A stretch of DNA of 46,390 nucleotides from Candidatus Alectryobacillus merdavium (GCA_017694735.1 JADIMN010000040.1:1-46390), one strand, 5' to 3'; counted from the stretch's first letter, positions 23,279 to 41,987 are shown. The notes: generated from the letters alone by a model not told the origin. Numbers and translations are program-made.

Positions 23279-23289
23279 AACGGACTCCT

Positions 23290-26008: not shown

Positions 26009-26028
26009 AAAAATCGACCTTACACAAT

Positions 26029-26058
26029 ATAATATTTATCTTAATTGTTAAATTGCAA
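26029..26058 (-). promoter_or_regulatory. putative promoter of the radical-SAM operon (-35 TTGCAA, 18-bp spacer, -10 TATTAT)
   Basis: hexamers counted directly; the -35 sits at the centre of a 20-bp perfect palindrome (26046-26065). Confidence 0.4.
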
Positions 26059-26064
26059 TTTAAC

Positions 26065-26148
26065 ATTGACACCTATAAAATATAGACACCAATCCCTAAA
26101 TAATGTAATATTAAATTAATTTTACTTCAGTCCAACTTTAATGGTTCA
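26065..26148 (+). mobile_element. solo 3'-end remnant of the IS3-family element found intact-length at 40521-42030
   Basis: ~84 bp with about 4 mismatches to the reverse complement of 40521-40604. Includes the last codons of the transposase (TPIKYRHQSLNNVI) and the terminal inverted repeat ...agtccaactttaatggttca. Confidence 0.85.
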
Positions 26149-26243
26149 CCCTAAAGGCATTATAGCCGTTTTTTTAAAATGTGATTGGAAAACGCCTTTA
26201 ATGCCATCAAACTTAGAAAGCGAACCCCTATAATGCCTAAATT

Positions 26244-28433
26244 TTATAAATTTAAGCCTTTTTTTACTTTAGATATTATTTCATCACAAAGTGAAATAAT
26301 GTAATTTGGTATATCAGTAATGCAAAAATCTTTTATTGAATATATGTATTGTGTTTCTACATGAAAAGAATTGCACATATAATCCCACATCACGTCAAAC
26401 TCGTTGTTGTCTTTTATATTTGGTAATCTAGTATTTAATTGTTCAACTAAACACCTTGTTATGCATGTTTTTGAAAAGTTAGTTGCTTTAGGACTTTCAT
26501 ACCATTCAATCGATTTTCGAAAATTAGAAATTTGCGAATATATCTCTTGATATTTGCATTTTTCACCTAGTAATTCGGATAATTCAGAATCGTATTGATG
26601 AAGTTCTATATCAGAAAAGTCCAACCCATTTTTTGAATGTTTAGGTTTGACAGTAGGATGAATAAGGCCGGACAAGTAATTATATAAATCAGCGGTCGTT
26701 CCGTCTTGTATTTCAACAATTCTACGTGCTGCAACTATTCTGCTATATATATCGTTAGCGCTATTCTTTGCGTATTCCTTATACCACAGTAAACTACTAT
26801 AGACATCATATTCGGAAAATGTTTTTTCGTTTAAAAAATGATTTACATTATAAAGATAAGAGAAAGACTTTTTATAGTTTTTAAATCTGCTATTTTTTGC
26901 AAAGGTAACAACTGTTTGAAAATCATGTGTCATTAAAAGAATCGTTTTTCCATATAATAAACTCTTTGTATTACCAAACAAGTAATTAAAAATTGCATAT
27001 CTTTTGTTATTATCAAAAGACGAAACTGGATCATCAAGAACCATTAGTGAAACGTTATCTTTGTTTTCAATAGCAAAGATAATAATAGCCAAAGCATTAG
27101 CCTCACCAAAACTTAAATAATTCAACCTATCTTCAATGATATTTGGGTCGTTTTTATATTTAAAGAATGTCTTAAAACTTTCATCACTTTCGGCGCTTAT
27201 ATTTACCCCATATGGTAAACCAGCAATTTTCAAAAAATCATTAATTATTTTCTCGTTTTTTGTTATTTTTGCTGCTAAGTTTTTAGTTAATTCACATAAA
27301 ATGCTTTTTAACGATTCAGCCATCCCAATAAGTGAATCTATCTCGGAATTTAATACTTTTACCAAATCTCCTAAAGAATCATTTTGAATCGAAACCACAC
27401 AAATAATTTTGTCGTTTAATTTTAAAGATTTAATATACTCAATTAAATTCTCAAACTTTTTATTATTGTCGAGAAAGGCATTAAAAAGTGCAATAGCACC
27501 TTGTCCCCTTATATTATTAATTTTTTCAATTTCTAACTTAATTTCATCAATAAATTTTTGTAAAGGGACGAAAATGTCCTTGTTGGCTTTACCTTTAAGT
27601 GAATTGATTTTAGATATACTTTCACTAATTAACAAATCAGAACAATATGATGCGGAATCGTTGATGTATTTTTGTTCTTTATTGTGCTGCATTACTTCCT
27701 TACTAGTTCCAAATTTCTCTATTTCCTCTACATTTTCTTTCAATGAAAAATCTTCTTTTTCAAACCTTTGACCACAAAATGGACAAATGTTTTCAACCGT
27801 CCACTTTTGGTCGTATGATTCAATCCATTTAAGCCAATTAGCCCTATATGGGCTAGACATATATTTTGACAGCTCAAAAATAGGAGATTGAGAATCAAGC
27901 AGCTTTAAATCGATTCCATTAGAAGAAAAAGCAATGAACAAACTATTTCTAGAATTGATGTCCTTCCCATTCTTTTTATATTCGATAAATTTCTTCGCTG
28001 TTAATTCGTTATATAGTTGAATTAAAGTACTAAATTCATTGCGCCATGCAATTTCACATACTTTTTTAAGAGAATCATTTATGCGTTCAACTTCTTTATC
28101 GTAAGTGTCATCTTTAATTGCAAACTGATATGTATCGTTTAATAAATCAACTCTTTTAGTAAATAATTTATCAAAATAAGCCTTATCGTAAACAACTACA
28201 TTTTGAATTTCTTCTGTAACTTCGCAAGTAGGTTCAATTTCAGGATTGTCTAAAGACGTTATTACATTTTTTAAATCTTGCTCACCATTAATTTTGTACT
28301 TGAGAGCCTTAATTATAGTTGTCTTCCCTATTCCATTGGGACCAAACTTAATATTCAGTTGATTAGCATTGACACTTATTTTTCCTTCTTTTATGCAACC
28401 AACATTTTGTAATTCAATAGAAAAATTATTCAT
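26244..28433 (-). CDS. RloC/PrrC-like ABC-type (AAA_13-like) ATPase with CxxC hook
   Basis: Walker A GPNGIGKTT; long helical insert containing CPFCGQ; signature-like LSFGE; Walker B MVLDDPVSSFD; H-loop LLMTHD; ~200-aa C-terminal domain with RRIVE...LIHP. Confidence 0.6.
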   Translation of the reverse strand: MNNFSIELQNVGCIKEGKISVNANQLNIKFGPNGIGKTTIIKALKYKINGEQDLKNVITSLDNPEIEPTCEVTEEIQNVVVYDKAYFDKLFTKRVDLLNDTYQFAIKDDTYDKEVERINDSLKKVCEIAWRNEFSTLIQLYNELTAKKFIEYKKNGKDINSRNSLFIAFSSNGIDLKLLDSQSPIFELSKYMSSPYRANWLKWIESYDQKWTVENICPFCGQRFEKEDFSLKENVEEIEKFGTSKEVMQHNKEQKYINDSASYCSDLLISESISKINSLKGKANKDIFVPLQKFIDEIKLEIEKINNIRGQGAIALFNAFLDNNKKFENLIEYIKSLKLNDKIICVVSIQNDSLGDLVKVLNSEIDSLIGMAESLKSILCELTKNLAAKITKNEKIINDFLKIAGLPYGVNISAESDESFKTFFKYKNDPNIIEDRLNYLSFGEANALAIIIFAIENKDNVSLMVLDDPVSSFDNNKRYAIFNYLFGNTKSLLYGKTILLMTHDFQTVVTFAKNSRFKNYKKSFSYLYNVNHFLNEKTFSEYDVYSSLLWYKEYAKNSANDIYSRIVAARRIVEIQDGTTADLYNYLSGLIHPTVKPKHSKNGLDFSDIELHQYDSELSELLGEKCKYQEIYSQISNFRKSIEWYESPKATNFSKTCITRCLVEQLNTRLPNIKDNNEFDVMWDYMCNSFHVETQYIYSIKDFCITDIPNYIISLCDEIISKVKKGLNL

Positions 28434-28704: not shown

Positions 28705-31062
28705 TTACTCACTCCAAGATGATACTTCAAAATATAAAGCAGTTTTATTATAATTTCCTAAATTACAATCGTATGGATCAACAATTAAATTGCCATCAAA
28801 ATCTACATTGATTGCAAAAGATGTATTATTTGGCTTATAAGACCAAAGTCCATCACTACCTTGTCTAAACCAGTATGTTGTTGTTCCAGCAGTTACAATC
28901 GCTATTTTATATGAATTATCGCCAGGAATACTATATCTGTTTATTTGTTTTACTTCTAAATTTTTCCCTGAAACAGAATTAAATACATGGTAATCTAAAA
29001 ATAAGTTTTCTATCATAGCAGAAGTAGTTCCACTTGTACTTATACTCTCTCCCATAAATTTTGCAAAATCTCCAGGCTTCTGATTTTCATAATCACTATA
29101 ATCAAACTGGCTTTTATAGTTATTAATAGCATAAGCATAAGAACTTAATTCAGCGAAAGAATTGCAAAAATCTAATTCCGAACCAGACAAACCCATAAAA
29201 TTCTCATCAATTGGATAAAAGGCCATATTTCCTATACAAATTCTGCCTCGGTTATCATCACTGCTAGAAACAAATTCAGTTTCCATATAAAACCTAATAC
29301 GATATGTAGGTACTTCAAAATTTATAGTATATATCCTCTGGTCATTCCTATCTACAGGCAAATTAGTACTTTCAGCAAGTAAATCTAATTCTGTCACATA
29401 ATTATTTCCTTCAAGTCTTTGCAATAGAGCAGTTGTTTGAGAATTATTAATCCATTCACTATTTGGATCTCTCCAATATGATAAATTAACATCAAGTCGA
29501 GAAACGGGATTTTTAAATCTATATTCAATAAACGCCTTATTAATATCTTCATGAATAGGAGACAACACTATATATTCATCTTGTATATACCCTGCTCTAT
29601 AACGTCTAGTTTCAAATTCAAAACCATTAGTAGCGATATGCTCAGTAAACTCAGTCCAAATACTATCATCTTCTTTATTCAATTCGGATGGATATACATC
29701 TTCTTCAAATTCATATTGATCAGGAGATATGTACGGAACATTAGAATAAGTATTAGGAATTTCAAAAAATTGACGACACCAATAATCGTCCCAATAAGTT
29801 CCATCGGTGGAATTTAAAGTTAAATAAACATAAAATCCATCATGTAAATTTTGTTTAATTTGCGTCCATTCACTATCTGATAAAGTAAATGTGTTGGAGT
29901 ATAAAGGATAACTAAGTTCAATATATGGATGTTTTTCACTATCAAGAATTGAAAGCGAAATAGATAAATTACTATATTCAAACCATTTTTCATCAAACAG
30001 GGAAACCCATTTGAAGGTAGGATTTAAATCAAAATAATATCCGCCTATAGTGGTGATTTCGTTTGGCATCACATAAAAGCAAGAACAATATTTCTCACCA
30101 TTGCTACATGAATAATTATCGCAATGTACATGATATGTATTCATTTCAAATGTTATGACAGAGGTCATTTTTTCATATCCAAGTTGTTCAAGAGAAACAT
30201 GAGTTAATGTAATCCCATTCTCTTCATCACGCCAGCCAGTGTGAACGTATATTTCATCATTAATTTCATCATAATCATAACCTATAACGGAATGCACATC
30301 GCCATTAGATAGTTCAACGTTTATAATAACAGGCTTTCCATTTACTATATTTTCTATTGCTTTAGTTTTCATATTAGTTTCATTTCTAGCAATTGTACTT
30401 ATGGAAAAATCACTATTTTCATAATTCAAATAATCCAGCAAATAATAATCAAGTAATTGGCCAAAATCAGTAGCGAACATTCCAAGCTCATCTTCGGTAT
30501 CAAAATATAAATCGCCAAAGCAATCTTTTCCTAAAGAAAGTAATTTCAATTGGAAATAAGAGTTCGAATTTTGTTCAATAAAATAATCATAATCTTCTAT
30601 ACTTATTACATCTTCTAGCAGATCTTGCGATTCAAATCTTATTCCAGGAGAAGAAATATTTGATGGTAATAAATCAAAGTCAGCTCCTGACTGTCGCAAT
30701 TGATTAAAATTTGCTACAGCATCATATTCTTCAGGAATAATATCATCATCCCAATATGTATCATAAAACGACAATAACATTCCTATAGAAACATAGGAGC
30801 AAGTTCCAAATATATTATTTCCAAAATTTTCAGTAAGATTATAAAAATAATAGCTTGCATAGTTATTTTCAATAAATATTGGTTCTTGTTCATTACTAGA
30901 AAAATAATTAAACTTTTCATTAACTATTTCATCGCCAAATTTAGAATGGGCAACCTGCTTAGAGCTATTGATTTCTTTAGCAACCATCATTGCATTATTC
31001 AAGTCAAAAGATGGAAAAATAGCTAATAGAACAAGAGTAAAACTTTTATATAATTTTTTCAT
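28705..31062 (-). CDS. large secreted streptopain-like (C10-like) cysteine peptidase with ~450-aa C-terminal extension
   Basis: Signal-like N-terminus; GTCSYVSIGMLLSFYD (Cys block) and GKPVIINV..GDVHSVIGYDYDEINDEIYVHTGW (His block) resemble SpeB motifs; GGAGG RBS. Confidence 0.55.
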   Translation of the reverse strand: MKKLYKSFTLVLLAIFPSFDLNNAMMVAKEINSSKQVAHSKFGDEIVNEKFNYFSSNEQEPIFIENNYASYYFYNLTENFGNNIFGTCSYVSIGMLLSFYDTYWDDDIIPEEYDAVANFNQLRQSGADFDLLPSNISSPGIRFESQDLLEDVISIEDYDYFIEQNSNSYFQLKLLSLGKDCFGDLYFDTEDELGMFATDFGQLLDYYLLDYLNYENSDFSISTIARNETNMKTKAIENIVNGKPVIINVELSNGDVHSVIGYDYDEINDEIYVHTGWRDEENGITLTHVSLEQLGYEKMTSVITFEMNTYHVHCDNYSCSNGEKYCSCFYVMPNEITTIGGYYFDLNPTFKWVSLFDEKWFEYSNLSISLSILDSEKHPYIELSYPLYSNTFTLSDSEWTQIKQNLHDGFYVYLTLNSTDGTYWDDYWCRQFFEIPNTYSNVPYISPDQYEFEEDVYPSELNKEDDSIWTEFTEHIATNGFEFETRRYRAGYIQDEYIVLSPIHEDINKAFIEYRFKNPVSRLDVNLSYWRDPNSEWINNSQTTALLQRLEGNNYVTELDLLAESTNLPVDRNDQRIYTINFEVPTYRIRFYMETEFVSSSDDNRGRICIGNMAFYPIDENFMGLSGSELDFCNSFAELSSYAYAINNYKSQFDYSDYENQKPGDFAKFMGESISTSGTTSAMIENLFLDYHVFNSVSGKNLEVKQINRYSIPGDNSYKIAIVTAGTTTYWFRQGSDGLWSYKPNNTSFAINVDFDGNLIVDPYDCNLGNYNKTALYFEVSSWSE

Positions 31063-31079
31063 ACAATCTACCTCCTTTA

Positions 31080-31694
31080 TTAAAAATTCGAATTAATATG
31101 AACCAAAATACTATTACTTACTCCATCGCCTGCTGTTACAAAAAATGAAACATAGCCTTCTTTTCCATAAGTTTGAATTCTAAAATTTCCAAAAGGATCA
31201 CGAAATTGTGTTAACATTGAATAATTTGAGGATTCAATATATTTTGTACGATCGCCTTGATAAGAACTTCTCACCGCATATGATTTATTAATAGTTAATT
31301 CTGTTTGTTCCATACTAATAGTAAAGTCAGGTTCAGGATTAGGTATAACATTTATGGTTATAGAATCTTGATAACCACCGCATTCAACTCTAACTACAGT
31401 GCTTCCTTGATAATATCCACAAACCATTCTCGAATCTCCAAGCGTAAAATTTGCGATATATGTTAAATCACAAGAGTAAGTAATTGGTTCAGATAAATTA
31501 CTTACTAAAGTTTCAATTTTGACTTTTTCTCCTACTTCTATAGTTAAATTATCATCATTTAATATTTCTATAAATTTATTTTCATTATAAGAAGATGTAT
31601 CGCTAGAACTTGAATCGTCATAAATATTACACGAACACAAGCAAAAAATAGTTACAAATGTAAAAATTATATTTCTAAAAAGATTGGCTTTCAT
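31080..31694 (-). CDS. lipoprotein with bacterial Ig-like (Big_2-like) domain
   Basis: Start placed at ATG 31694 (GGGAGG RBS); lipobox-like CLCSC-N; LTIEVGEKVKIE...STVVRVECGGYQDSITINV resembles Big_2. Confidence 0.55.
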   Translation of the reverse strand: MKANLFRNIIFTFVTIFCLCSCNIYDDSSSSDTSSYNENKFIEILNDDNLTIEVGEKVKIETLVSNLSEPITYSCDLTYIANFTLGDSRMVCGYYQGSTVVRVECGGYQDSITINVIPNPEPDFTISMEQTELTINKSYAVRSSYQGDRTKYIESSNYSMLTQFRDPFGNFRIQTYGKEGYVSFFVTAGDGVSNSILVHINSNF

Positions 31695-31759
31695 ATATAC
31701 CTCCCATATCAATTTTATTTCATTTATTTTAGCATGAAAAAGTTTATAAGTACAAGTTC

Positions 31760-31810
31760 TTAACAATTTCACATCATTTATTAAAGAACATTAACAATTT
31801 CACATCATTT
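31760..31810. repeat. two perfect 20-bp direct repeats ttaacaatttcacatcattt (31760-31779, 31791-31810), 31-bp period
   Basis: read directly; immediately upstream of a possible promoter (TTGTAC-18-TAAAAT) for the lipoprotein/protease operon. Confidence 0.8.
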
Positions 31811-31819
31811 GATATTAAA

Positions 31820-31875
31820 CACAATATGGTTATAAAAGATCTTTGTCTAGAAAGGGACGTTCCCAGACAATCAAT
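31820..31875 (+). mobile_element. ~55-bp fragment of an IS3 orfB (YGYKRSLSRKG.FPDN) in opposite orientation, abutting the IS end
   Basis: near-identical to the minus-strand coding sequence at ~32115-32175 (YGYKRSMSRKGCFPDN). Confidence 0.65.
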
Positions 31876-33501
31876 TGTAAATGTCAATCTCAAATGGTAG
31901 TTTTGAGGATGCGGATATTTTTTTGGACTAATATTGATTATAATTTAACACAATTTCTTTCGGTGATAAATATCCTAATCTTTTCTTAATTCGTTTATTT
32001 TTAAACCAATTTAGATATTTTTCTAATTCAGTAATAAAATCATCACATGTTGTATGTTTCCAATTATTTGGATAAAAGAACTCATTCTTAATTGTTCCAA
32101 AGAATCCTTCACACATTGAATTGTCTGGAAAACATCCCTTTCTAGACATAGATCTTTTATAGCCATATTGTTCCATAAGCTTTATCCAGGAATCAATTCT
32201 ATAATGAAAGCCCCTATCGCTATGAATTAGTATCCCGGAATTACCAATTATTTCATGAGTTTCCTTTAACATTTTATTAGTTAATTCAGAATTAGGTGAT
32301 TTACCAATTCTCCAGGTAATAGGAGAATCGTCGAAGCAATCAATAAAAGGAGACAAATAAACCTTACCATCTTTTAATGCAAATTCAGTTATATCTGTAA
32401 GAGCTTGTTTATATGGTTTATTCTCAATAAATTTTCTATTAACTATGTTTTCAACTTGTGGACTTATTTCTCCTTTATAAGAAGAATACTTGAGTTTTGT
32501 TTTTGGCATATAAACAAATAATTTTTCTTCTTTTATTAACCGAATAATTACTTTTTCAGAAATAACAATTCCATACGATTTAGACAACTCTTGTTTTACT
32601 CTTCGATACCCATAACATTCTTAATTATTAAGAAATATTTCTTTAATGATTTTCCTTATAGTTAAGTATTTATCAAAGTTTACTCTTTTTATTTAATAAA
32701 AATATGTTGAACGTTTTAAGCGAATTATTTTAAGCAACTCATTAATTTTATATTCTTCCCTTAAGGTGTTGACTATTTGAGTTTTTTTATTGCCTAATAG
32801 ATAATAATCAACGCCTATTTCTTTTTTTAATATTTCGTTTGCTTTTTTTAGAACTTTGTTTTCAAGCTCGAGTTTTAAATGTTCTTTTCGAAACATTATT
32901 ATTTCTTCTTCAAGTTATTGTTTTGATTTATCTTTCTTTTTCATAATTGGTTCACCAGTTAGTTCTTTTTGCCATTCATATAAAGTAACTCTAGTAACAT
33001 TATACTTATTAGCAACAGTAATTGCTGATGATTCTCTCGACAGTAAATCAACAATTGCTTTTTTCTTATCTTCATCATTTAATATCGTTGCCTTTTTATG
33101 AACTTAGTGTTTTCTTATCCATCTTTTATCTTTTTTTACCCATAGTTTTAATGTTGAAGGGGATGGATAGCCTAATATTCGGCATGTTTTAGTTATATTT
33201 TCACCATGACTAAAGTAGTATTCTATAACCGGCTCTTGTTCGTCTTTACTCGATCTAGATGATTTATTTCTCTTCCCTGAAATTAAAGGTTGCCCTTTTT
33301 TTCTTTTATCTCTCCAAGATCTCAATGTGTAACGATTAATTCCTAATGCTCTTGCAGTCTTAGATAATTGTCCATCATAGGTATCTAATAAATTTAATGC
33401 TTTCTCAATTTCTTCAATTTTGTGCATACTTGTCCTTCCTATTTTAGTCCAAGTTTTTGTCCGCACCCCCTTTTTCCTACATTTTGAGTTTACTATTTAC
33501 A
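31876..33501 (-). mobile_element. IS3-family insertion sequence, decayed
   Basis: Imperfect terminal inverted repeats TGTAAATGTCAATCTCAAATGGTAG / TGTAAATAGTAAACTCAAAATGTAG (19 of 25 match) with an inner GG(A/G)TGCGGA match; HTH, leucine-zipper and DDE (HSDRGFHY, DNSMCEGFF) segments. Confidence 0.8.
31928..33466 (-). pseudogene. IS3 transposase reading frame interrupted by four in-frame TAA codons
   Basis: Track ORFs 33104-33466, 32693-32896 and 31928-32587 are all in one frame; TAA at 33104, 32915, 32693, 32621; no frameshift seen. Confidence 0.75.
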
Positions 33502-33908: not shown

Positions 33909-36905
33909 TTATTTTCTAGATATTACTTTACTAGCTACATATTGAACTGCTTGTCTAGAAGAAGAGAAAACGAGATCGATAAAGTCACGATACTTTTTAG
34001 TACATAATTGATAATTCTCAGTAATGTATCTTTTAGCAATTAATCTAGCGGACATCTTCACAAAAGAATTGTCCCTATACTCTTTGCTCTTTAATATAGA
34101 ACTACACGAAGTAATAAATTCATCTCCCGAAACTAAAAAAGACTCAAACATTAAATTTTGTACTATACTTAACTCGCTTTTTGGATCTGATCTAGCGTTC
34201 CTAAGCAAATCTTTACTCGCTTTATCATTAAAAAATCTTGAACCATAATCGTATATTGACAAAATAAAAGCTCTTTTTAAATCGATGATTAAGTTATTTA
34301 AATCGGACAAAATCAATGAATCAGTTTTATCATTTGATATTCCTTTGAAAAACGCATATAAATTATCTAACTCTTTAAAAAGATACTCATTGTATTGATA
34401 TAAAATGATATTTGGCAAAGTTACAATTAATTGAATCAATTTTTCTTTTGATTGCTTTAATAAACTTGAACCAAAACTTTTCAAAAGAACACAACAAATT
34501 TTTAATTCATCTAACAAGGTCTGAATTTCTTTTATTTTTTCAGAAACAGGTTCTTCATAATATAAATTATCCTTATTTTCAACATAATTAATATGTTTTT
34601 CGCTTTCCTTTTTATCCTGTTTTTCATTTATCTTAACAATATCATCATCTGTTAATTTCTTTAGTTCCTCTTTTTTCTCCATTGTAATACCAGAAATGGT
34701 AAAATTTTCTTCCGATAATAAAGGTAAATCTTTTGTCTTGTTATTTATTAAATCAATAATCTTATTTGGAACTATTACGCTATTATATAAAGATGACAAA
34801 CACATTAAGATATTAAAATTTAGGGGCACAAATATATCTTCTTTTAATAATTTAATAAATTCGTCATTATTTCCTTGTCCTAAATTAAGATTAATAAAAT
34901 AAGCTATATAATAAGAAAAAATATCACGATTTAAAAACATAAATTTATTGTCATTCGTTCTTTTGGCAATGAACGACTCTAGCATCAAATTTATAATATT
35001 TTTTTCATTAACGCCCGGAGCACCATAGTATTCATTTTCGTATTTTAATGAATCTTTTATTTCTTTGAATTCAAAAGTACTTTGTTTTTTATCATAAAGA
35101 TTATATGCAATAAATGACAGAATTCTCTTTATTACTTGTATATCACTATTAATTTTATTGCGCTCAATAATTTTTACAAGTTTTAATATAGATTTGGCTT
35201 GGTTAACACTTGAAAACAATAAATTATCAAAGGAATCAGAATTCCTAAAAACATATAATTCAATGTATCCTAGAGAAATTGGATCGCAGATATCGCTAAA
35301 AGACAACGTACTTAATTGCTTTTCTACACATGAAAAGAATTGTTCTTTTGATAAACTAGACTTATCTCCGCTTTTCATTAATAAATCATAAAATTTATAA
35401 GTAAACTCTTTTCTTTTAGATTTTAACATCGGCTGAATTGTATATTCAAGTACTTCAATTTGGTCAATATAGATTGGTTTATTCAATAAATTATTTTCAT
35501 CGGTTCTTAAAAAAACAATTATATGATCAAAAAATTCCCGCGCCTTAGACAAAAAATCAATATCCGAAGGAGAAAAATCATCAATAATAATTACTCTTTG
35601 AGACTTTAAAGTTTCGTTTTTAAATATACTTTTTTCTTTTTCAGAATACATAGATCTAATTTTGCTATTGATAAGTCTTTCAATTTCATTAATCTTATGA
35701 AAATCATCTCCAGAAAATAAAAGAGGAAAATAATTTTCATTAAAAAATAATAAAGTTAAATATTTTGATAACGACGTTTTTCCACTGCTTTCATCACCAT
35801 ATATAAAAATAAAAGGATGACTATTTGATTTAATCAATAACGAATTGAAATCTTTTATTGAAGATTCTTTATCGTCGAAGTTCAAGTATTTAGCTTTATT
35901 CAGATAAGGAAAAACAAAAAGATCCTCAATGTTAAATTGTCTTTCTTGAACTTCAAATTTTTCCAAATCAACAAAACAATCATCATTGAAAGAAATATTA
36001 AGTGAGTTCCATCTAGATGATTTTAATTCTAACTTATGTTGAACATTTTCTTCAATATAGGATTTTGACTCATCGTCCCATTCAAATTTTCCATAATAAT
36101 TTGAATTTAAATCAATCTTAACAAACGAACTTTTATTTGATCCTTTTTTGCAAAAATAGTTTCCTTGGATAATGTTAGTTGTTCCTTCATCAAAAATTAA
36201 TTCGTTTTCAGGAACATGCAAATGGCCGTTTAATACTACATCAACATTCTTTATTAGTTTTGTTTTTAATTTATGACCAATTTCATCATTAAAATAACTT
36301 ACTGGGAAATGCATAAGCAAAAAAACAATTTGATTTGGGCTTTTTCTTGAAATATTTGAAATTGTTGTTTCTGATAAATACGCATAATTCTTTGTATCGC
36401 TACTTTTATTTTCTGTTCCAAAACAAGAAAAAAATACATTATCTAAAGAATAAAAAACAATTTCTTTATTGTCATCCTTAAAAACTAAGGATGTTAAAAA
36501 ATTATTAATAAAGTTAGATTGAACATTTTCTTTTTCAAAAGATAAATATGATGATATATATTGTTTTCTTTCATTATATATATCATCAACATTCTCTTTT
36601 TGAGTATCTCTTATGAGAGAACTTAAGTTGTAATTTTTTTCCTTAAAGTCAATATCATGATTTCCTGGACAAGTAATTAACCTAATTTCTTTTTTGCTTC
36701 TTTCTTTTAATCTATTGAAAAAATCAATGAATAAATTGTATTCATCTGTTTTTCCGCTAAAAGCAATATCACCGCTAACTGCTAGATAAATATAATTATT
36801 TGAGTCGTTTTGTATAATCCTAGCAAAAGATAATATTTTGTCATTATTAATAAAATTTTCTTCAGAACAATGACAGTCCGTTATGAAATAAACGCTGCTT
36901 CTCAT
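33909..36905 (-). CDS. 998-aa fusion: calcineurin-like metallophosphoesterase, P-loop NTPase and long alpha-helical C-terminal region
   Basis: All five MPE motifs (DCH, GDIAFSG, GNHD, LLMHFP, GHLHV) in residues ~1-240; Walker A GDESSGKTS and Walker B RVIIIDDF around residues 370-450; ~520-aa helical tail; GGAGGTGA RBS. Confidence 0.8.
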   Translation of the reverse strand: MRSSVYFITDCHCSEENFINNDKILSFARIIQNDSNNYIYLAVSGDIAFSGKTDEYNLFIDFFNRLKERSKKEIRLITCPGNHDIDFKEKNYNLSSLIRDTQKENVDDIYNERKQYISSYLSFEKENVQSNFINNFLTSLVFKDDNKEIVFYSLDNVFFSCFGTENKSSDTKNYAYLSETTISNISRKSPNQIVFLLMHFPVSYFNDEIGHKLKTKLIKNVDVVLNGHLHVPENELIFDEGTTNIIQGNYFCKKGSNKSSFVKIDLNSNYYGKFEWDDESKSYIEENVQHKLELKSSRWNSLNISFNDDCFVDLEKFEVQERQFNIEDLFVFPYLNKAKYLNFDDKESSIKDFNSLLIKSNSHPFIFIYGDESSGKTSLSKYLTLLFFNENYFPLLFSGDDFHKINEIERLINSKIRSMYSEKEKSIFKNETLKSQRVIIIDDFSPSDIDFLSKAREFFDHIIVFLRTDENNLLNKPIYIDQIEVLEYTIQPMLKSKRKEFTYKFYDLLMKSGDKSSLSKEQFFSCVEKQLSTLSFSDICDPISLGYIELYVFRNSDSFDNLLFSSVNQAKSILKLVKIIERNKINSDIQVIKRILSFIAYNLYDKKQSTFEFKEIKDSLKYENEYYGAPGVNEKNIINLMLESFIAKRTNDNKFMFLNRDIFSYYIAYFINLNLGQGNNDEFIKLLKEDIFVPLNFNILMCLSSLYNSVIVPNKIIDLINNKTKDLPLLSEENFTISGITMEKKEELKKLTDDDIVKINEKQDKKESEKHINYVENKDNLYYEEPVSEKIKEIQTLLDELKICCVLLKSFGSSLLKQSKEKLIQLIVTLPNIILYQYNEYLFKELDNLYAFFKGISNDKTDSLILSDLNNLIIDLKRAFILSIYDYGSRFFNDKASKDLLRNARSDPKSELSIVQNLMFESFLVSGDEFITSCSSILKSKEYRDNSFVKMSARLIAKRYITENYQLCTKKYRDFIDLVFSSSRQAVQYVASKVISRK

Positions 36906-37420
36906 TAATCACCTCCATAAATTAATAATATCTTAAATAAAATATTAAGAAAAATGAACAAACAATTTTTCTTAAACCTTGATAAATTATTATATTATAA
37001 AGAATTTTTGTTTTAAATATTTTTTATGATATAGAACGAACCTTACTATTTCAATCCAAGTTTTAATTCTTAATTAAAAACCGATAATATTTTTATTTTT
37101 TATGTTAAAAATTTGAAGAAATTGCCAAGGTTCAATAGCAACAATTTTGACTAATTAAAAAATTCAAATCTATTATTTCGATTTTTACTTTTAATATTTA
37201 GACCAGCTAGACATCTTTCTATTTATTATTTTTCGCAATTAAATTTTGTATTAAATTTTTTTAAAGTGACTCTTTTAAAATAATGTATTTTTTTGTTTTA
37301 AATTTAGTTGAATTATTTATAACCCCGCAGATTTAAATTAAACTCGTCTTATGTTGGCATGAAAATTAAAACATTTATTTATTTCTGTTTATCACTATAA
37401 AATAAAAATAGAAAAATAAG

Positions 37421-37791
37421 CTAATAATTTAGATATTTGTTAGATAGTTTATTACCAAACAACTCAGTATAAAAAGAATAGTAGCTGATATTGTGCTTGA
37501 ATCTATAGTTACCAAAGCATCCACACCAAATAATGCTTGGAAGCCCAATAACGAATATCCAAAGCGGACCTAAAATAATTCTTTGGATCGTATTTCCGTA
37601 TTCGTGTTTTAACAACTGATGATCTTTCTGATATTTATTAACAAAAATAAATAACCAAAATAAACACTGCCACAATAGTTCCATTCAATTACTATGGCAC
37701 CATGAAATAAAAAGTGTTTCTTCCTTATGTTTAATAGAAAAACAAAAAAACCTATAAGAGTATGAATAATTCCATGGGTGCAAGATAACAA
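37421..37791 (-). pseudogene. small polytopic membrane protein split across two overlapping frames (possible frameshift)
   Basis: Track ORFs 37609-37791 and 37421-37684 overlap by 76 nt in different frames, both hydrophobic; T-runs lie in the overlap. Confidence 0.3.
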
Positions 37792-37950: not shown

Positions 37951-38727
37951 TTATGATGGGGAGGGGCTATATTTTTTTATAAGTCTCTCCAATTCTTCGC
38001 TCTTATTTGAGAAAACATATTTATTTCCATCATTCATTGCTGACTCAATCATTTTGTTATTATGCTCAATCACCACTATATCTTCTACAATCTCTGCACC
38101 ATTATTATGTTTGTAAAGTTGCTCAAAAACACCTTTATCAACAAAGTGAATAGCTAATGTTGGAGTAACTGGAAACCACCAGTTTAAATCATTGAATATT
38201 GATTTCCATACATAAAATCCTTTTATTGAAGAAATGAATGATGTATTTGTTTTGTTAAAAACTATAACTGGATAATGATTATCAAAGAAAGTGTCTACTA
38301 AAGTTGTTTGTTCAAGTAACTTAACAAACTCTGAAGGTGTAGGCTTGATCCCTAATTCTTTTGCAATAATTGTTTTTGCGACAGTTTTTTCAATCAAAGA
38401 TGGCTCTCTAACCATGAGCATAGCTAAGTATCTTTTTATATCTAATATTTCACTTGCAGTAAGAAGTTCAATTGTATTATTGCTTTCAAATTCTTTGATT
38501 CTTTTAACCACATTTCCAATTGGAGTCTCATATTTAGAACTTAGAAATAATTCAGTTTCCTTATTGAAATACCCATAAATAATCCCTATTTTACTTGGTC
38601 CTCTTTTTTCATCAATCTTCCATGTTGTTAAATCTAAAGCACAAGTGTTTCCGTCTTCTTCAGATTTTTTGAAGTTCTTAATAATTGTTCTAGAGTTTTG
38701 AACATGAGAATCAATTTTCTTTCCCAT
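37951..38727 (-). CDS. hypothetical protein, possibly DUF4238-like
   Basis: Start placed at ATG 38727 (AGGTGA RBS); N-terminal SHVQNSRTIIKNF loosely resembles the HYVPQFYLKNF motif of DUF4238; no TM. Confidence 0.35.
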   Translation of the reverse strand: MGKKIDSHVQNSRTIIKNFKKSEEDGNTCALDLTTWKIDEKRGPSKIGIIYGYFNKETELFLSSKYETPIGNVVKRIKEFESNNTIELLTASEILDIKRYLAMLMVREPSLIEKTVAKTIIAKELGIKPTPSEFVKLLEQTTLVDTFFDNHYPVIVFNKTNTSFISSIKGFYVWKSIFNDLNWWFPVTPTLAIHFVDKGVFEQLYKHNNGAEIVEDIVVIEHNNKMIESAMNDGNKYVFSNKSEELERLIKKYSPSPS

Positions 38728-38767
38728 AAATATCACCTAGTCTTTCTAGATGATTATACCATAAACA

Positions 38768-39295: not shown

Positions 39296-40520
39296 ATGTT
39301 TAAAAAAACAAAAGTTAAACAAATTTTATCTATGATATTTCTTAATGCTAGTAATTATTTGATTTCAGAAACATTAAGTGTATCAAGAAACGCTATTTCT
39401 TTAATAAGAGAAAAAATTGACAATTTTGACCTTAATAAAGATAATTTGGAAAATTACTCGGATAATCAACTTTATTCAATGTTTTTTCCGGATTGTTTTA
39501 TTAGAAAAGTTTTATATGAAAAAGTTGACTTTGAATATGTCCATAAAGAACTTAAAAAAGTAGGTGTAACTTTAAAATTATTATGGGAAGAATATGCGAA
39601 TTATCGTAAAAAAGAAGGCTTGAAATATTGTAGTTATCCTACTTTTGTTGTAAATTACGAGAAATATACTAGTATTCAAAAATACACTTCACGTCTAACA
39701 CATAAACCCAGAGAAGCAATTGAAGTTGATTGGTCTGGATCTACTATGAGCTTTATCGATAGAGATACTAATAAAAAGATTACAACATATTTATTTGTCG
39801 CATGTTTGCCTTATTCTCAAAAGATATATGTTGAAGCAACAACTTCAATGAAGCAAGAATCATGGATGAACTGTAATGTTAATATGTTAAATTATTTTGG
39901 TGGATCTCCTTTAACAATAGTTTGTGATAATTGCAAAACCCCAGTAATCTCTCATCCAAGATGTGGTGACATCGAACTTAATGAAGAATATTAAACATTT
40001 TGTGAGTATTATGGAATAGTTGTAAAACCAGCAAATGTTAGAAAGCCAAAAAAAGCTTCTGTTGAAGGAAATGTTGGAAAAATAGCTACAAAGATAATTG
40101 CAAAATTAAGAAATGAAACTTTTTATTCACTTAATTCTTTGAATAATGCAATTTAAAATGAATTAAATATTTTTAATAGCGCTCCATTTCAAAAAAGAAA
40201 TGGTTCAAGAAATTCTATTTTTGAGTTTGAAGAAAAGAGATATCTAAAACCTCTTCCAAGAGTGCCTTATGAAGTTAGTACATGGTATTATTCATTAAAA
40301 GTAATGTACAATTCACACATTTCATTTAGAAATAATTTTTATTCTGTACCTTATAAATATATTAATAAAAATGTAGATGCAAAAATATATAATTCAAACT
40401 TATATGTTTACTATAAAAAAGAATTAATTGCATCTCATCCTTTGATTTTAAGTAACGAAAAAAATAAATATATTACTAATAAAGGTCATCTTGATGAAAA
40501 AAAGAATTTAAAAAGTAGGG
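39296..40520 (+). pseudogene. IS21-family IstA transposase, two in-frame TAA codons and 3' truncation by IS3 insertion; no istB
   Basis: HTH N-terminus; DDE core (EVDWSG...LFVACLPYSQKIYVEA...GGSPLTIVCDNCKTPV); TAA at 39992 and 40154 in one continuous frame; the frame runs into the IS3 terminal repeat at 40521. Confidence 0.8.
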
Positions 40521-40555
40521 TGAACCCTTAAAGTTGGACTGAAGTAAAATTAATT

Positions 40556-41460
40556 TTATATTACATTATTTAGGGATTGATGTCTATATTTTATAGGCGT
40601 CAATCCTTTTAATTTTGTTATAATTCGTTGATTACTGTAATAACTTATATATTTATGCATAGCTTTTTCTAAATCATCAAGTGTTTCAAATTCATATTCA
40701 TGACCATAAAACATCTCATTCTTCATAGTTCCAAAGAATATTTCTATTACACAATTGTCGTAACAGTTACCTTTTCTAGACATACTTTGTCTTATACTTT
40801 TTTGGATAATTTATCTCTATATGGTTTCATTTGATACTGCCATGCTTGGTCAGAATGGAAAATTAAATTGTCTAAATTCTTATATTTTATAAAAGCTGTA
40901 TCTAGCATATCCATAACCTGCAAAAAGTTAGGAGAAGTAGAAATTGAATAAGATATTATTTCTCGATTATGTACATCAATTATTGGTGATAAATAAAGCT
41001 TACCTGCTGCGATATGAAATTCTGATATATCAGTACTCCAAATTTGATTTACAGCTGTTGTTTTAAAATTTCTTTCATAATATGTTTTATTATTTTTTTC
41101 ATCAACAATCTATTTAAGAAGTAGATTCTTACAAACTTTTCCAACTTCACCTTTATATGATTTATATTTGGCTTTTGGACGTACACCAAAAAGCCCTAAT
41201 ATTTTCATTAATCTTTTTACTCTCTTATGATTGATGTAATGACCTCTATTTTTAAGTTCTAAAGTTATCCTTCTATAGCCGTATCTTGCTTTATTTTCGT
41301 TAAAAATTGTTGTAATTAAGTCTTTAACTTGTTTATCGGGATCAACTCTATCTAGTGTTTTAATAGTGTAAAAATAAGTTGATTTAGCTATTTTAAAGAA
41401 TCTTAACATCTTGTTTAATGGATATTTATGCCTTGATTCATAGACAACAATTATTTTTTC
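40556..41460 (-). pseudogene. IS3 OrfB (DDE transposase) with in-frame TAG and one frameshift
   Basis: TAG at 41110-41112; frame change in the homopolymer at 40798-40803; motifs NQIWSTDISEF, HSDQAWQY, SRKGNCYDNCVIE. Confidence 0.8.
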
Positions 41461-41987
41461 TCGTTTTGTTGCCCGTTCCTTTGTTGAACCAAGGCTCTCA
41501 ATTTTTTTAATAGATAATTCTCCATTTCTAACTGAGTATTTCGTTCCTCGAGTTCTTTAATTATTTTATCTTTATCATCTAATTTATTAGAGTTATTAAC
41601 TATTTTTTGTTGTATATTTTTATCTTTCATTTTTCTTGGCCTTCCTTGTTTTGTAGTAAGACCATTATATCCTAATTCCTGATATTTTTTAACCCAAGCA
41701 TGAATCATTCCTACGTTTACGCAAAGTTCAGATGCAATACTGTTTTTTGAATCACCATTTAAAACCCTATTAACTATTTCCATTTTAAATTCTGGTGAAT
41801 ATTTCATATTTTTTCCTTTAGCTTTAAATGACTCAATCCCATGCTCTCTATATTGACGTTCTATCCCTCTGATAACTGATTCGCAAACTTTAAATTTTTT
41901 ACTAATTGATGATATTAAATCACCACCTTCATACATTGTAATTATTTTTAGTTTATCTTCTAACTTTAATTTCATAAAAACCCCCAT
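41451..41987 (-). CDS. IS3 OrfA (HTH plus leucine zipper)
   Basis: 178 aa; two HTH-like segments and a C-terminal heptad region LEERNTQLEMENYLLKKLRAL. Confidence 0.8.
   Translation of the reverse strand: MGVFMKLKLEDKLKIITMYEGGDLISSISKKFKVCESVIRGIERQYREHGIESFKAKGKNMKYSPEFKMEIVNRVLNGDSKNSIASELCVNVGMIHAWVKKYQELGYNGLTTKQGRPRKMKDKNIQQKIVNNSNKLDDKDKIIKELEERNTQLEMENYLLKKLRALVQQRNGQQNEKK

What the first reader, a model, noticed from the sequence alone, without database searches (positions are those of the whole stretch)
33909..36905. 998-aa single-gene metallophosphoesterase / P-loop NTPase / helical-sensor fusion (STAND/Avs-like layout) in an IS-flanked island
The N-terminal ~240 aa carry all five calcineurin-like phosphoesterase motifs (D-x-H, GD, GNHD, H, GH-x-H). 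A Walker A (GDESSGKTS) and Walker B (RVIIIDDF) NTPase module follows. The last ~520 aa form a helical region with no motif I recognise.

This order (effector enzyme, then NTPase switch, then large C-terminal sensor-like domain) is the logic of antiviral STAND (Avs) and related single-protein defence genes. I am not aware of a described family with a metallophosphoesterase effector in this arrangement.

The gene stands alone, with ~400-500 bp of non-coding DNA on each side, between an IS3 copy and a prophage-like HNH / DUF4238-like patch. That context is typical of a defence island.
Basis: partly seen in the sequence, partly recalled or inferred. Interest (0 to 1): 0.75.

Follow-up and report, generated by a model that had tools for sequence, protein, structure and literature searches.

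The report
Divergent DS-8-type anti-phage NLR protein
This gene encodes a single large protein (phosphoesterase enzyme, ATP-driven switch, helical tail) that is a distant relative of DS-8, an anti-phage immune protein already tested in E. coli, so it is a new member of a known family and not a new kind of system.

Summary
ORF 33909..36905 (-) encodes 998 aa with all five metallophosphoesterase (MPE) motifs, a Walker A and a Walker B, all invariant across 17 relatives. A mostly helical second half follows.

The defence/STAND reading also holds, but the family is already described. The protein matches NCBIfam NF053861 "DS8_antiphage" almost end to end (E 7e-74) and PADLOC candidate PDC-S60. DS-8 (E. 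coli WP_032203427.1; DefensePredictor, Science 2026) is a single MPE + NACHT protein that protects against phage. Its essential residues D52, N84 and K375 align with D46, N82 and K376 here.

The score (249 bits) is far below the equivalog cut-off (790), and identity to DS-8 is about 25%. This is therefore a divergent subfamily, from an uncultured low-GC Bacilli.

The predicted structure matches NLRC4, NLRP1, Avs4 and Avs5 for the switch, and GpdQ and Rv0805 for the enzyme. The last 340 aa have no structural match in the PDB.

Relatives are solitary genes beside recombinases, restriction enzymes and conjugation genes. Here the neighbours are a DUF4238 gene, a PDC-S06 ATPase and decayed IS elements.

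Likely mechanism (inferred): phage sensing, oligomerisation, then nucleotide hydrolysis and abortive infection.

Verdict: new member of a known kind; modest interest.

The parts
33909..36905 (-). Complete gene: 998-aa DS-8-like MPE-STAND protein (ATG start, TAA stop)
   Evidence: ORF list. NF053861 DS8_antiphage E 7e-74, residues 8-869 against profile 2-882/994. PDC-S60 E 3.6e-12. Stop codon.
36036..36905 (-). Residues 1-290: N-terminal calcineurin-like metallophosphoesterase, the putative effector. Motifs D10xH12, G45D46, G81NHD84, H199, G227HxH230.
   Evidence: Pfam PF00149 residues 5-232, E 1.1e-15. Motifs by regex, invariant in A1. Foldseek hits GpdQ, Rv0805, Lmo2642 and purple acid phosphatase. 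D46 and N82 align with DS-8 D52 and N84, which are essential for defence.
35856..36035 (-). Residues 291-350: beta-rich linker between the enzyme and the NTPase, including the conserved V331-F332-P333 motif
   Evidence: Secondary structure of the AF2 model. Conserved columns.
35436..35855 (-). Residues 351-490: P-loop nucleotide-binding domain of the STAND module
   Evidence: Weak Pfam ATPase_2 and nSTAND3 hits at 343-424. Foldseek NLRC4 E 6.5e-8, STAND-TPR 6mfv, NLRP1, Avs4, EfAvs5.
35775..35798 (-). Walker A, G370DESSGKT377
   Evidence: Regex. G375 and K376 invariant. K376 aligns with DS-8 K375, whose mutation abolishes defence.
35577..35594 (-). Walker B, V438IIIDD443
   Evidence: Regex. 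D442 invariant.
35151..35435 (-). Residues 491-585: helical domain after the NBD (HD1-like). It begins with the nearly invariant K497-R498, a possible sensor-1 arginine.
   Evidence: AF2 helices 495-582. Conservation. The sensor-1 assignment is an inference.
34878..35150 (-). Residues 586-676: winged-helix-like domain (three helices plus a beta-hairpin) with the conserved F657..Y665..A668 motif
   Evidence: AF2 elements H589-605, H613-627, H634-643, E647-649, E655-657. The homologous stretch of the DS-8 equivalog P0017 (634-688) matches Pfam nSTAND_NTPase4, E 8e-14. Conserved columns.
33912..34877 (-). Residues 677-998: family-specific all-alpha C-terminal domain, the putative sensor or autoinhibitory domain
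   Evidence: Separate AF2 model of residues 660-998: pLDDT 82.7, pTM 0.77. No PDB fold match; best E 0.94. As conserved within the subfamily as the enzyme domain, 50-60% identity.
36910..36916 (-). Shine-Dalgarno GGAGGTG, 4 nt before the ATG
   Evidence: Read directly from the sequence.
36989..37017 (-). Promoter-like TTTAAA-17-TATAAT about 85 bp upstream of the start codon (consensus match only)
   Evidence: Such matches are not enriched over shuffles in this AT-rich region.
37951..38736 (-). Context: upstream neighbour, a DUF4238 protein (261 aa). This is a domain with a reported anti-phage phenotype.
   Evidence: Pfam PF14022 E 1.3e-8, profile 7-280/281. A single DUF4238 protein protects E. 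coli against T7 (PMC9122126).
31928..33466 (-). Context: downstream neighbour, a decayed IS3-family element with four in-frame TAA stops
   Evidence: Pfam rve, rve_2 and HTH_28. Frame analysis.
26244..28433 (-). Context: 729-aa SMC/ABC-type ATPase matching PADLOC candidate PDC-S06
   Evidence: PDLC04889 E 7.2e-110, residues 5-723 against profile 2-690/693.

Best explanation
The gene encodes a divergent member of the DS-8 / PADLOC PDC-S60 family. This is a stand-alone, NLR-like (STAND NTPase) anti-phage protein whose effector is an N-terminal binuclear metallophosphoesterase.

Proposed working (inferred from the family and from STAND proteins in general):
1. In the resting state, the C-terminal all-alpha domain and the NBD-HD-WHD module hold the protein in an inactive form.
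2. A phage-derived or infection-derived cue is sensed through the C-terminal region.
3. Nucleotide-dependent oligomerisation brings the phosphoesterase domains together and switches them on.
4. The enzyme most likely hydrolyses phosphoanhydride or phosphodiester bonds of free nucleotides (NAD+, (d)NDP/(d)NTP or similar). That would collapse a pool the phage needs and abort the infection.

What is shown here: domain anatomy, conservation, near full-length homology to DS-8, conservation of the three residues essential in DS-8, the STAND-like fold, and the solitary, mobile, defence-type context.

What is inferred: the trigger, the oligomerisation and the substrate. I put about 0.8 on 'DS-8-family defence protein' and about 0.45 on 'nucleotide-depleting effector'.
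For: Homology to DS-8:
- NF053861 DS8_antiphage, E 7.2e-74, covering residues 8-869 against profile 2-882/994.
- P0017 passes that model's equivalog cut-off (896 against 790 bits). It aligns with the window protein at 25% identity over residues 1-675, E 3e-33.
- BLASTP against the published N-terminal 399 aa of E. coli DS-8 gives E 7e-18. The stretches SGDIAFSG, CPGNHD and GDExxGK[ST] line up, so D46/N82/K376 correspond to D52/N84/K375.
- Those three mutations abolish DS-8 defence.

Other support:
- PADLOC PDC-S60 is hit by the window protein and strongly by the DS-8 equivalog (E 6e-96).
- STAND fold: Foldseek NLRC4 6.5e-8, 6mfv, NLRP1, Avs4, EfAvs5. The top viral hit is an NLR-like phage protein.
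- Large, uniform family: 599 clusters (50% identity) at E<=1e-10, nearly all about 1000 aa and aligned over most or all of their length.
- Solitary gene with no conserved partner.
- Neighbours in 22 genomes are dominated by serine recombinases, ResIII/SNF2 helicases, type IV and type I restriction enzymes, methylases, relaxases and T4SS genes.

Substrate lead:
- The next-best NCBIfam family is DS9_1 (E 3e-10 here; up to 1.7e-15 over the whole MPE in relatives).
- A two-gene E. coli system of that same architecture (MPE-bearing protein plus HAD phosphatase), the PUA-Calcineurin-CE/HAD system, has been characterised. Its MPE converts (d)NDP to (d)NMP and on its own cleaves NAD+ to NMN + AMP.
- The closest solved MPE folds are small-molecule phosphodiesterases: GpdQ, Rv0805 and Lmo2642.
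Against: - The score is only 249 bits against the 790-bit equivalog cut-off, and identity to DS-8 is about 25%. Functional equivalence is therefore an extrapolation.
- No phenotype exists for this clade or for any Bacillota member.
- The last ~130 residues are not aligned to the DS-8 profile.
- The DS-8 substrate is unknown even in E. coli.
- The Calcineurin-CE precedent works with a HAD partner. None is present here or among the neighbours surveyed.
- The match to DS9_1 covers only residues 30-129 in this protein.
- The neighbour census has no matched control.
- Both flanking IS elements are pseudogenes, so recent mobility of this copy is not shown.
Confidence: 0.72

Rival explanations
1. Same DS-8-type NLR-like defence protein, but the metallophosphoesterase is a nuclease. 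Once activated it cuts phage and/or host DNA or RNA, in the manner of Mre11/SbcD or the P. putida MPE ssDNA endonuclease, and does not hydrolyse free nucleotides.
For: - The MPE domains of relatives match the PADLOC CBASS effector model PDLC00736, labelled 'Endonuclease': P0017 E 2.4e-15, P0022 E 2.6e-27.
- The MPE superfamily contains bona fide nucleases (PMC7826289, listed).
- The viral fold library returns Mre11/SbcD-like exonucleases at E about 1e-5.
- Many bacterial NACHT and Avs effectors are nucleases.
Against: - The window protein itself does not hit PDLC00736 at E<=1.
- No Mre11 or SbcD chain is among the 50 best PDB fold matches, where the MPE hits are GpdQ, Rv0805, Lmo2642, purple acid phosphatase and CD73.
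- The viral Mre11-like hits have rmsd 40-60 A and TM about 0.15.
- There is no SbcC/Rad50 partner.
- The closest family with a measured activity acts on nucleotides.
- The PADLOC label is an annotation, not a tested activity.
Confidence: 0.15
2. Same family, but the enzyme degrades a cyclic (oligo)nucleotide or other signalling nucleotide. This is what the DS-8 authors suggested by analogy with the cGAMP-degrading SMPDL3A. The protein would then act on a signal, from host or phage, and not on bulk metabolites.
For: - The DS-8 authors report HHpred and structural similarity of the MPE to SMPDL3A/3B and propose an unidentified cyclic nucleotide substrate.
- Foldseek here finds the class III cyclic-nucleotide phosphodiesterase Rv0805 and GpdQ among the best MPE matches.
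- Kibby et al. class calcineurin-like phosphoesterases on bNACHTs as 'nucleotide-signal-generating/degrading enzymes'.
Against: - The gene is solitary, with no cyclase or nucleotidyltransferase partner in the window or recurrent among 134 neighbours of relatives.
- Destroying a signal does not by itself explain how a one-gene system stops a phage.
- SMPDL3A is not among the 50 best PDB matches for this protein.
Confidence: 0.12
3. Not an immune gene: a housekeeping or regulatory phosphoesterase-NTPase (for example nucleotide metabolism or DNA repair), or a decaying relic that merely sits in a variable region.
For: - No phenotype is known for this clade.
- The score is below the DS-8 equivalog cut-off.
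- The flanking IS elements are dead, so the region is old.
- The G+C content of the gene does not differ from its surroundings.
Against: - The ORF is intact and its product has the same amino-acid sequence on three contigs read, at least two of them from separate samples.
- All catalytic and P-loop residues are invariant across the family.
- The family is patchily distributed and sits in different, non-syntenic contexts even among 58%-identical relatives.
- Neighbours are restriction, recombinase and conjugation genes, not a conserved pathway.
- The E. coli homologue is experimentally defensive.
Confidence: 0.04

Closest known systems
DS-8 (E. coli WP_032203427.1, 1014 aa; DefensePredictor, DeWeirdt et al., Science 2026, PMC13092281; NCBIfam NF053861)
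   Same: - Single ~1000-aa protein with an N-terminal metallophosphatase, a central P-loop STAND/NACHT-type NTPase and a helical C-terminus.
- Homologous along residues 8-869.
- The three residues essential for DS-8 defence are conserved in identical local motifs.
- Stand-alone gene.
   Different: - Only about 25% identity.
- 249 bits against the 790-bit equivalog cut-off.
- The last ~130 residues fall outside the profile alignment.
- Host is an uncultured low-GC Bacilli, not a proteobacterium.
- No phenotype has been tested.
PADLOC-DB v2 candidate system PDC-S60 (models PDLC05050 and PDLC05051)
   Same: The window protein hits PDLC05051 over residues 7-675 (E 3.6e-12). The DS-8 equivalog P0017 hits PDLC05050 at E 6e-96. 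PDC-S60 and DS-8 are therefore the same family.
   Different: The match is weak and does not reach the C-terminal third. PDC-S60 is a computational candidate for which I found no published description.
Bacterial NLR-related proteins (bNACHT; Kibby et al. 2022/2023) and eukaryotic NLRs
   Same: - Tripartite effector / NTPase / C-terminal domain layout.
- The best PDB fold matches are NLRC4 and NLRP1.
- The DS-8 authors' HHblits links DS-8 to bNACHT01.
- Calcineurin-like phosphoesterases are listed as bNACHT effectors.
   Different: - No Pfam NACHT hit for this protein.
- Walker B is hhhhDD[FW], not the NACHT D-[GAS]-h-D-E pattern.
- No conserved WHD histidine in the alignment.
- The C-terminus is not LRR, TPR or WD40, and has no PDB fold match.
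Avs / AVAST antiviral STAND proteins (Avs4 8dgf, Avs5 9jap/9nc9)
   Same: A single STAND protein with an N-terminal enzyme effector. Avs4 and Avs5 are among the best fold matches. The expected logic is the same: sensing, then oligomerisation, then effector activation.
   Different: No Avs model in PADLOC is hit at E<=1. The effector type differs (MPE, not nuclease, SIR2 or protease). The C-terminal domain is unrelated, and the trigger is unknown.
PUA-Calcineurin-CE + HAD system (apparently the same type as DS-9: same architecture, shared mutated residue D207; bioRxiv 10.64898/2026.01.15.699771)
   Same: The MPE domain is the nearest NCBIfam family after DS-8 (DS9_1: E 3e-10 here, up to 1.7e-15 over the whole domain in relatives). 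It is an immune effector of the calcineurin-like superfamily with measured nucleotide-hydrolysing activity.
   Different: No PUA sensor, no HAD partner, and regulation by a STAND NTPase in place of ligand-driven filament assembly. Membership of the 'Calcineurin-CE' clade as defined by Nicastro et al. 2023 could not be checked, because the paper is not held.

Membership tests
DS-8 anti-phage protein (NCBIfam NF053861, equivalog) | Score at or above the curated equivalog cut-off (790 bits) | tested here: not met
   249.1 bits, E 7.2e-74. A metagenomic relative, P0017, does pass with 896 bits. The window protein is a homologue, not an equivalog by NCBI's criterion.
DS-8 anti-phage protein (family level) | One polypeptide of about 1000 aa with an N-terminal metallophosphatase, a P-loop NTPase and a helical C-terminus, homologous along its length | tested here: met
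   Residues 8-869 align to profile positions 2-882 of 994. BLASTP to P0017 covers residues 1-675, E 3e-33. 599 family clusters are nearly all about 1000 aa.
DS-8 anti-phage protein (family level) | Conservation of the residues shown to be essential for defence (DS-8 D52, N84, K375) | tested here: met
   D46, N82 and K376 align with them within SGDIAFSG, CPGNHD and GDExxGK[ST]. All are invariant in A1.
DS-8 anti-phage protein (family level) | Confers phage resistance when expressed | not testable with these tools
   Known only for the E. coli protein (Table S7 rows shown give -log EOP 2.18 for SECphi17 and 1.22 for T5).
DS-8 anti-phage protein (family level) | Single-gene system without an obligatory partner | tested here: met
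   No conserved adjacent ORF among the window, L005/L006 and L001/L009. Solitary ORFs of 989-1109 aa in 25 of 26 loci; L036 holds only a 460-aa fragment.
STAND NTPases (NLR-like) | Walker A and Walker B P-loop NBD followed by a helical domain and a winged-helix domain (NOD module) | tested here: met
   Motifs. AF2 topology: NBD 351-490, helices 495-582, three helices plus hairpin 589-657. Foldseek NLRC4, 6mfv STAND, NLRP1, Avs4, Avs5 at E 6.5e-8 to 1e-4.
NACHT clade of STAND | Pfam NACHT (PF05729) match and the NACHT-type Walker B extension D-[GAS]-h-D-E (the pattern is from my own knowledge of Koonin & Aravind 2000) | tested here: not met
   No PF05729 hit; only sub-threshold ATPase_2 and nSTAND3. 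Walker B reads VIIIDDFSPSD. Relatives carry Pfam nSTAND_NTPase4. One distant, domain-shuffled relative carries NB-ARC. A few DS-8-clade proteins carry PF05729. The clade within STAND is unresolved.
Avs / AVAST | Match to an Avs1-5 family model | tested here: not met
   PADLOC scan at E<=1 returns only PDC-S60 and PDC-S10. The similarity to Avs4 and Avs5 is at the level of the shared STAND fold.
Calcineurin-like binuclear metallophosphoesterases | Five metal-binding and catalytic motifs: DxH, GD, GNH[DE], H, GHxH | tested here: met
PUA-Cal-HAD / DS-9 (Calcineurin-CE effector systems) | PUA-like sensor fused to the MPE, plus an adjacent HAD phosphatase gene | tested here: not met
   No PUA or HAD domain in the protein or its neighbours. 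HAD is not among the 25 commonest neighbour families. Only the MPE domain is related.
Mre11/SbcD nucleases | Adjacent SbcC/Rad50 ATPase and an Mre11-type fold with a capping domain | tested here: not met
   No adjacent SMC-type gene; the nearest, at 26244-28433, is 5.5 kb away beyond an IS element and matches PDC-S06. No Mre11 or SbcD chain in the top 50 PDB matches.

The most novel reading that the evidence does not exclude
This Bacillota clade may not simply copy E. coli DS-8. Its family-specific all-alpha C-terminal domain has no fold match in the PDB, and its last ~130 residues lie outside the DS-8 profile, so it could sense a different cue. Its HAD-less metallophosphoesterase could kill by cleaving NAD+ or nucleoside di/triphosphates. 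That would make the family the first NLR-type immune receptors whose output is metallophosphoesterase-driven nucleotide depletion. The mechanism is still unknown even for DS-8.
Probability: 0.3. Interest if true: 0.55.

Novelty: new member of a known kind. Interest (0 to 1): 0.27.

Why it matters
The finding adds little that is conceptually new. The MPE-STAND architecture has been noted since 2022, catalogued as PDC-S60, and validated as DS-8.

Its value is practical in three ways:
- The DS-8 family is large (about 600 clusters at 50% identity with E<=1e-10). It extends, in divergent form, into uncultured gut and rumen Bacillota, where NCBI's equivalog model does not reach, so these genes are still annotated only as 'metallophosphoesterase'.
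- It gives a compact alignment of invariant residues, and a confident model of a C-terminal domain with no solved relative.
- It connects DS-8's orphan effector to the one calcineurin-like immune effector with measured chemistry (NDP/dNDP and NAD+ hydrolysis). That yields a directly testable substrate hypothesis for the whole family.

Tried and rejected
- **Full-length E. coli DS-8 sequence.** Only the first 399 aa are printed in the paper's supplement. None of the 436 fetched proteins has D52/N84/K375 at those exact positions. I therefore used the 399-aa fragment and the equivalog-passing P0017.
- **Nicastro et al. 2023** (the definition of Calcineurin-CE) is not held, by DOI or by PMC id. 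Membership of that clade is untested.
- **'PDC-S60' in the literature:** no paper found.
- **Composite transposon.** The two IS3-like elements on either side share no DNA repeat of 25 nt or more, and both are pseudogenes. Rejected.
- **Conserved small upstream partner gene.** The 87-aa ORF at 37421-37684 and the 113-aa gene upstream of P0002 are unrelated, and the upstream regions share no similarity. Rejected.
- **HNH neighbour.** Not found in any ORF scanned.
- **Phage or plasmid carriage.** No tblastn hit in 50,697 phage records. Only 5 weak partial hits in plasmids, all annotated metallophosphoesterase.
- **Sequence-level relatives with solved structures.** Only marginal MPE hits: GpdQ and Lmo2642 at E about 1e-5.
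- **Alternative genetic code.** 19 of 23 long ORFs end in TAA, and the ribosomal and transport genes are intact under table 11. Rejected.
- **Neighbour census control.** It is offered as qualitative evidence only.


Full report
**1. The observation**

The minus strand of 33909..36905 carries an uninterrupted 998-codon ORF with an ATG start and a TAA stop. The window has about 25% G+C. At that composition roughly one random codon in eleven is a stop, so an open frame this long cannot arise by chance.

- D10-x-H12, G45-D46, G81-N82-H83-D84 and G227-H228-x-H230.
- Walker A G370DESSGKT377.
- Walker B V438IIIDD443.

Pfam's Metallophos model covers residues 5-232 (E 1.1e-15). In an alignment of 17 relatives reaching down to 18% identity, the invariant columns are exactly these residues, plus H199, G375/K376 and D442.

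A GGAGGTG Shine-Dalgarno sequence lies 4 nt before the ATG. A TTTAAA-17-TATAAT element lies about 85 bp upstream, though promoter-like matches are not enriched in this AT-rich DNA.

The only detail that failed is the 'HNH' neighbour, which no Pfam scan found.

**2. What it is**

NCBIfam gives one strong answer: NF053861 'DS8_antiphage', E 7.2e-74. Residues 8-869 align to profile positions 2-882 of 994. PADLOC returns the candidate system PDC-S60 (E 3.6e-12).

DS-8 comes from the DefensePredictor study (PMC13092281). It is E. coli WP_032203427.1, 1014 aa. The authors describe it as a single-protein system with a metallophosphatase domain and a NACHT domain that reduces phage plating. Mutating two metallophosphatase residues or one P-loop residue abolishes protection. 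The strain table names those mutations as D52A, N84A and K375A.

The supplement prints the first 399 residues of DS-8. BLASTP against them gives 25% identity over 392 residues, E 7e-18. SGDIAFSG aligns with SGDIAFSG, CPGNHD with CPGNHD, and GDESSGKT with GDEFCGKS. The three residues essential in DS-8 therefore correspond to D46, N82 and K376 here.

A metagenomic relative, P0017, passes the curated DS-8 equivalog cut-off (896 against 790 bits, full profile).
- It aligns with the window protein over residues 1-675 (E 3e-33).
- It hits PADLOC PDC-S60 at E 6e-96, which shows that PDC-S60 and DS-8 are one family.

The window protein itself scores only 249 bits, so it is a homologue and not an equivalog.

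**3. Size and spread of the family**

An exhaustive HMMER search of 1.84 billion representative proteins finds 1581 clusters at E<=1e-3, 599 at E<=1e-10 and 36 at E<=1e-30. Nearly all are about 1000 aa, and most align over most or all of their length.

The window's own clade (35-58% identity) is known only from metagenomes and MAGs. In one-genome-per-species GTDB contigs, relatives occur mainly in the following groups:
- Gut and rumen Clostridia: Oscillospiraceae, Lachnospiraceae, Christensenellaceae.
- Tissierella.
- Acholeplasmatales-like Bacilli.
- A few Bacteroidales and Verrucomicrobia.

The window itself comes from an uncultured low-GC member of the Bacilli. Its RpoA is 55-57% identical to proteins named 'MAG: Bacilli bacterium' or Erysipelotrichaceae. 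The island lies directly downstream of the rpoA-rplQ ribosomal operon.

**4. Anatomy from the predicted structure**

AlphaFold2 on the 17-sequence alignment gives mean pLDDT 81.8. The domains are:

| Residues | Assignment |
|---|---|
| 1-~290 | Alpha/beta sandwich of the phosphoesterase |
| 291-350 | Beta-rich linker |
| 351-490 | P-loop domain |
| 495-582 | Helical bundle |
| 589-657 | Three helices plus a beta-hairpin (winged-helix-like) |
| 660-998 | All helical |

The winged-helix-like stretch corresponds to the part of P0017 that matches Pfam 'nSTAND_NTPase4'.

Foldseek against the PDB puts the following first for the NTPase part:
- NLRC4 (E 6.5e-8).
- A bacterial STAND-TPR protein (6mfv).
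- NLRP1.
- Avs4 bound to phage portal.
- EfAvs5 (E 1.1e-4).

The best hit in the viral library is an NLR-like phage protein.

Its clade within STAND is not settled:
- There is no Pfam NACHT hit.
- Walker B is hhhhDD[FW], not the NACHT D-G-h-D-E pattern.
- Relatives carry nSTAND4, and one distant, domain-shuffled relative carries NB-ARC. A few DS-8-clade proteins carry PF05729 NACHT.
- The DS-8 authors' HHblits links DS-8 to bNACHT01.

About 185 aa are the HD and WHD parts of the STAND module. About 320-340 aa form a separate C-terminal domain.

Modelled alone, that C-terminal domain is confident (pLDDT 82.7, pTM 0.77). It has no significant fold match in the PDB; the best E is 0.94, to generic alpha-solenoids. 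Within the subfamily it is as conserved as the enzyme domain, at 50-60% identity.

**5. Context**

In the window the gene is solitary.

Downstream lies an IS3-family element (31928-33466). It is a pseudogene with four in-frame TAA stops.

Upstream lie:
- A DUF4238 gene (37951-38736). A single DUF4238 protein protects E. coli against T7 (PMC9122126).
- IS21 fragments.
- A second, frameshifted IS3-like element.

Further downstream is a 729-aa ATPase matching PADLOC candidate PDC-S06 end to end (E 7e-110). The whole variable stretch sits between maltodextrin-utilisation genes and rplQ. The two IS3-like elements share no DNA repeat, so there is no evidence for a composite transposon.

Close relatives (58% identity) lie in entirely different neighbourhoods, and no small upstream ORF is conserved.

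I surveyed 22 genomic loci of more distant relatives, taking the 134 neighbouring ORFs of at least 160 aa within 5 kb. The commonest Pfam families were:
- Large serine recombinases (7).
- ResIII (6), SNF2 (5) and DEAD (5) helicases.
- GNAT acetyltransferases (5).
- C5 DNA methylases (3).
- DUF3427 and PLD nucleases (3 each).
- Relaxases and T4SS coupling proteins (2-3).

PADLOC hits included type IV restriction enzymes (4, E to 1e-221), type I REases, PbeA and type II methylases. No housekeeping pathway recurs and no HAD phosphatase appears. This is the pattern of mobile elements and defence islands. I could not run a matched control, so I count it as qualitative support.

The family is absent from the phage collection and rare on plasmids.

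**6. How it most likely works**

Shown here:
- The anatomy, and the invariance of the catalytic and P-loop residues.
- The STAND fold.
- Homology to a protein whose defence needs both activities.

Inferred from what is known of NLR, Avs and bNACHT proteins: the resting protein is autoinhibited. A phage or infection cue is read by the C-terminal region. ATP-dependent oligomerisation then activates the N-terminal enzyme.

The substrate is unknown even for DS-8. Two lines point to small nucleotides and away from nucleic acids.
- The closest solved MPE folds are GpdQ, Rv0805 (a cyclic-nucleotide phosphodiesterase), Lmo2642, purple acid phosphatase and CD73. No Mre11 or SbcD chain appears in the top 50.
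- After DS-8, the nearest NCBIfam family is DS9_1. It scores E 3e-10 here over residues 30-129, and up to 1.7e-15 over the whole domain in relatives.

DS-9A looks like the MPE-bearing protein of the PUA-Calcineurin-CE/HAD system of E. coli. Both have an MPE protein plus a HAD gene, and both studies mutate a D207. I infer from this that they are the same type of system. In the PUA-Cal-HAD system the MPE converts (d)NDP to (d)NMP downstream of HAD. On its own it cleaves NAD+ to NMN + AMP, and dNTP collapse aborts infection.

With no HAD partner here, a HAD-independent activity on NAD+ or another pyrophosphate-linked nucleotide is my leading guess, at about 0.45.

The rivals are a nuclease effector and degradation of a signalling nucleotide.
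- The nuclease idea rests on relatives' MPE domains matching a PADLOC CBASS effector model labelled 'Endonuclease'. The window protein itself does not match that model.
- The signalling idea is the DS-8 authors' SMPDL3A analogy. It is hard to reconcile with a one-gene system.

**7. Comparison and novelty**

The protein works like an NLR or Avs-type receptor and belongs to the DS-8/PDC-S60 family at the level of homology. It fails NCBI's equivalog threshold, is not an Avs family member, and is not demonstrably NACHT in the strict sense.

The architecture was listed among bacterial NACHT effectors in 2022, catalogued by PADLOC in 2023, and validated in 2025/2026.

What remains open applies to the whole family and not to this locus in particular: the trigger, the substrate, and the nature of the C-terminal domain, which has no structural relative.

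**8. Verdict**

This is a real, intact and well-conserved gene. It is a new, divergent Bacillota member of a known single-protein anti-phage family. Interest is modest (0.27).

Noticed in passing
window 22251-28433 (-): A 729-aa SMC/ABC-type ATPase (26244-28433) matches PADLOC candidate PDC-S06 end to end (E 7e-110). On the same strand follow a 479-aa radical-SAM protein (24569-26008) and a 432-aa protein with no Pfam hit whose start overlaps the radical-SAM stop by 20 nt (23290-24588). Two more ORFs without Pfam hits come after. This could be a second defence system, or a peptide-maturation cluster beside a defence ATPase.
   Followed up: partly
window 37951-38736 (-): An intact DUF4238 gene (Pfam E 1.3e-8, profile 7-280/281) lies directly upstream of the DS-8-like gene. 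A single DUF4238 protein protects E. coli against T7 (PMC9122126). PADLOC v2 has no model for it.
   Followed up: partly
window 31928-33499 (-): The IS3-family element reads through orfA and orfB in a single frame with no frameshift. It is interrupted by four in-frame stops, all TAA (33104-06, 32915-17, 32693-95, 32621-23). TAA is also the normal stop here (19 of 23 long ORFs), so this looks like decay under AT pressure and not recoding.
   Followed up: yes
window 31821-31861 and 32131-32171: A 41-nt inverted repeat, 93% complementary. One arm lies inside the IS3 integrase-core ORF. The other lies just beyond its stop, so it is a short inverted duplicate of transposase coding sequence.
   Followed up: no
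window 39296-41987: IS21-type transposase fragments (rve, Mu-transpos_C_2) lie on the + strand. Next to them is a second IS3-like element on the - strand, broken by a stop and extra frameshifts. It shares no DNA repeat of 25 nt or more with the first IS3 element.
   Followed up: partly
window 28705-31772 (-): A 785-aa protein with a signal-peptide-like N-terminus and only a sub-threshold Peptidase_C39_2 match. It is preceded by a 230-aa protein with a hydrophobic N-terminal segment and no Pfam hit. Function unknown.
   Followed up: no
window 10035-14099 (-): A 1354-aa ORF whose only Pfam match is an ABC-transporter permease domain at residues 1136-1340. About 1100 residues before it are unexplained. 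It sits in a maltodextrin/amylase gene cluster.
   Followed up: no
relatives P0431, P0022, P0027: The same MPE module occurs in other scaffolds: TIR + MPE + nSTAND4 (P0431, 1233 aa), MPE + NB-ARC + TPR repeats (P0022, 1136 aa), and SIR2 + MPE (P0027, 640 aa, Butyrivibrio). This is effector and sensor shuffling typical of immune proteins.
   Followed up: partly
L005 5801-9352: Directly upstream of the 58%-identical relative P0002 lies an AAA ATPase (327 aa) plus Peptidase_S8 subtilase (849 aa) pair, along with HTH_3/HTH_19 proteins. This may be another conflict system.
   Followed up: no
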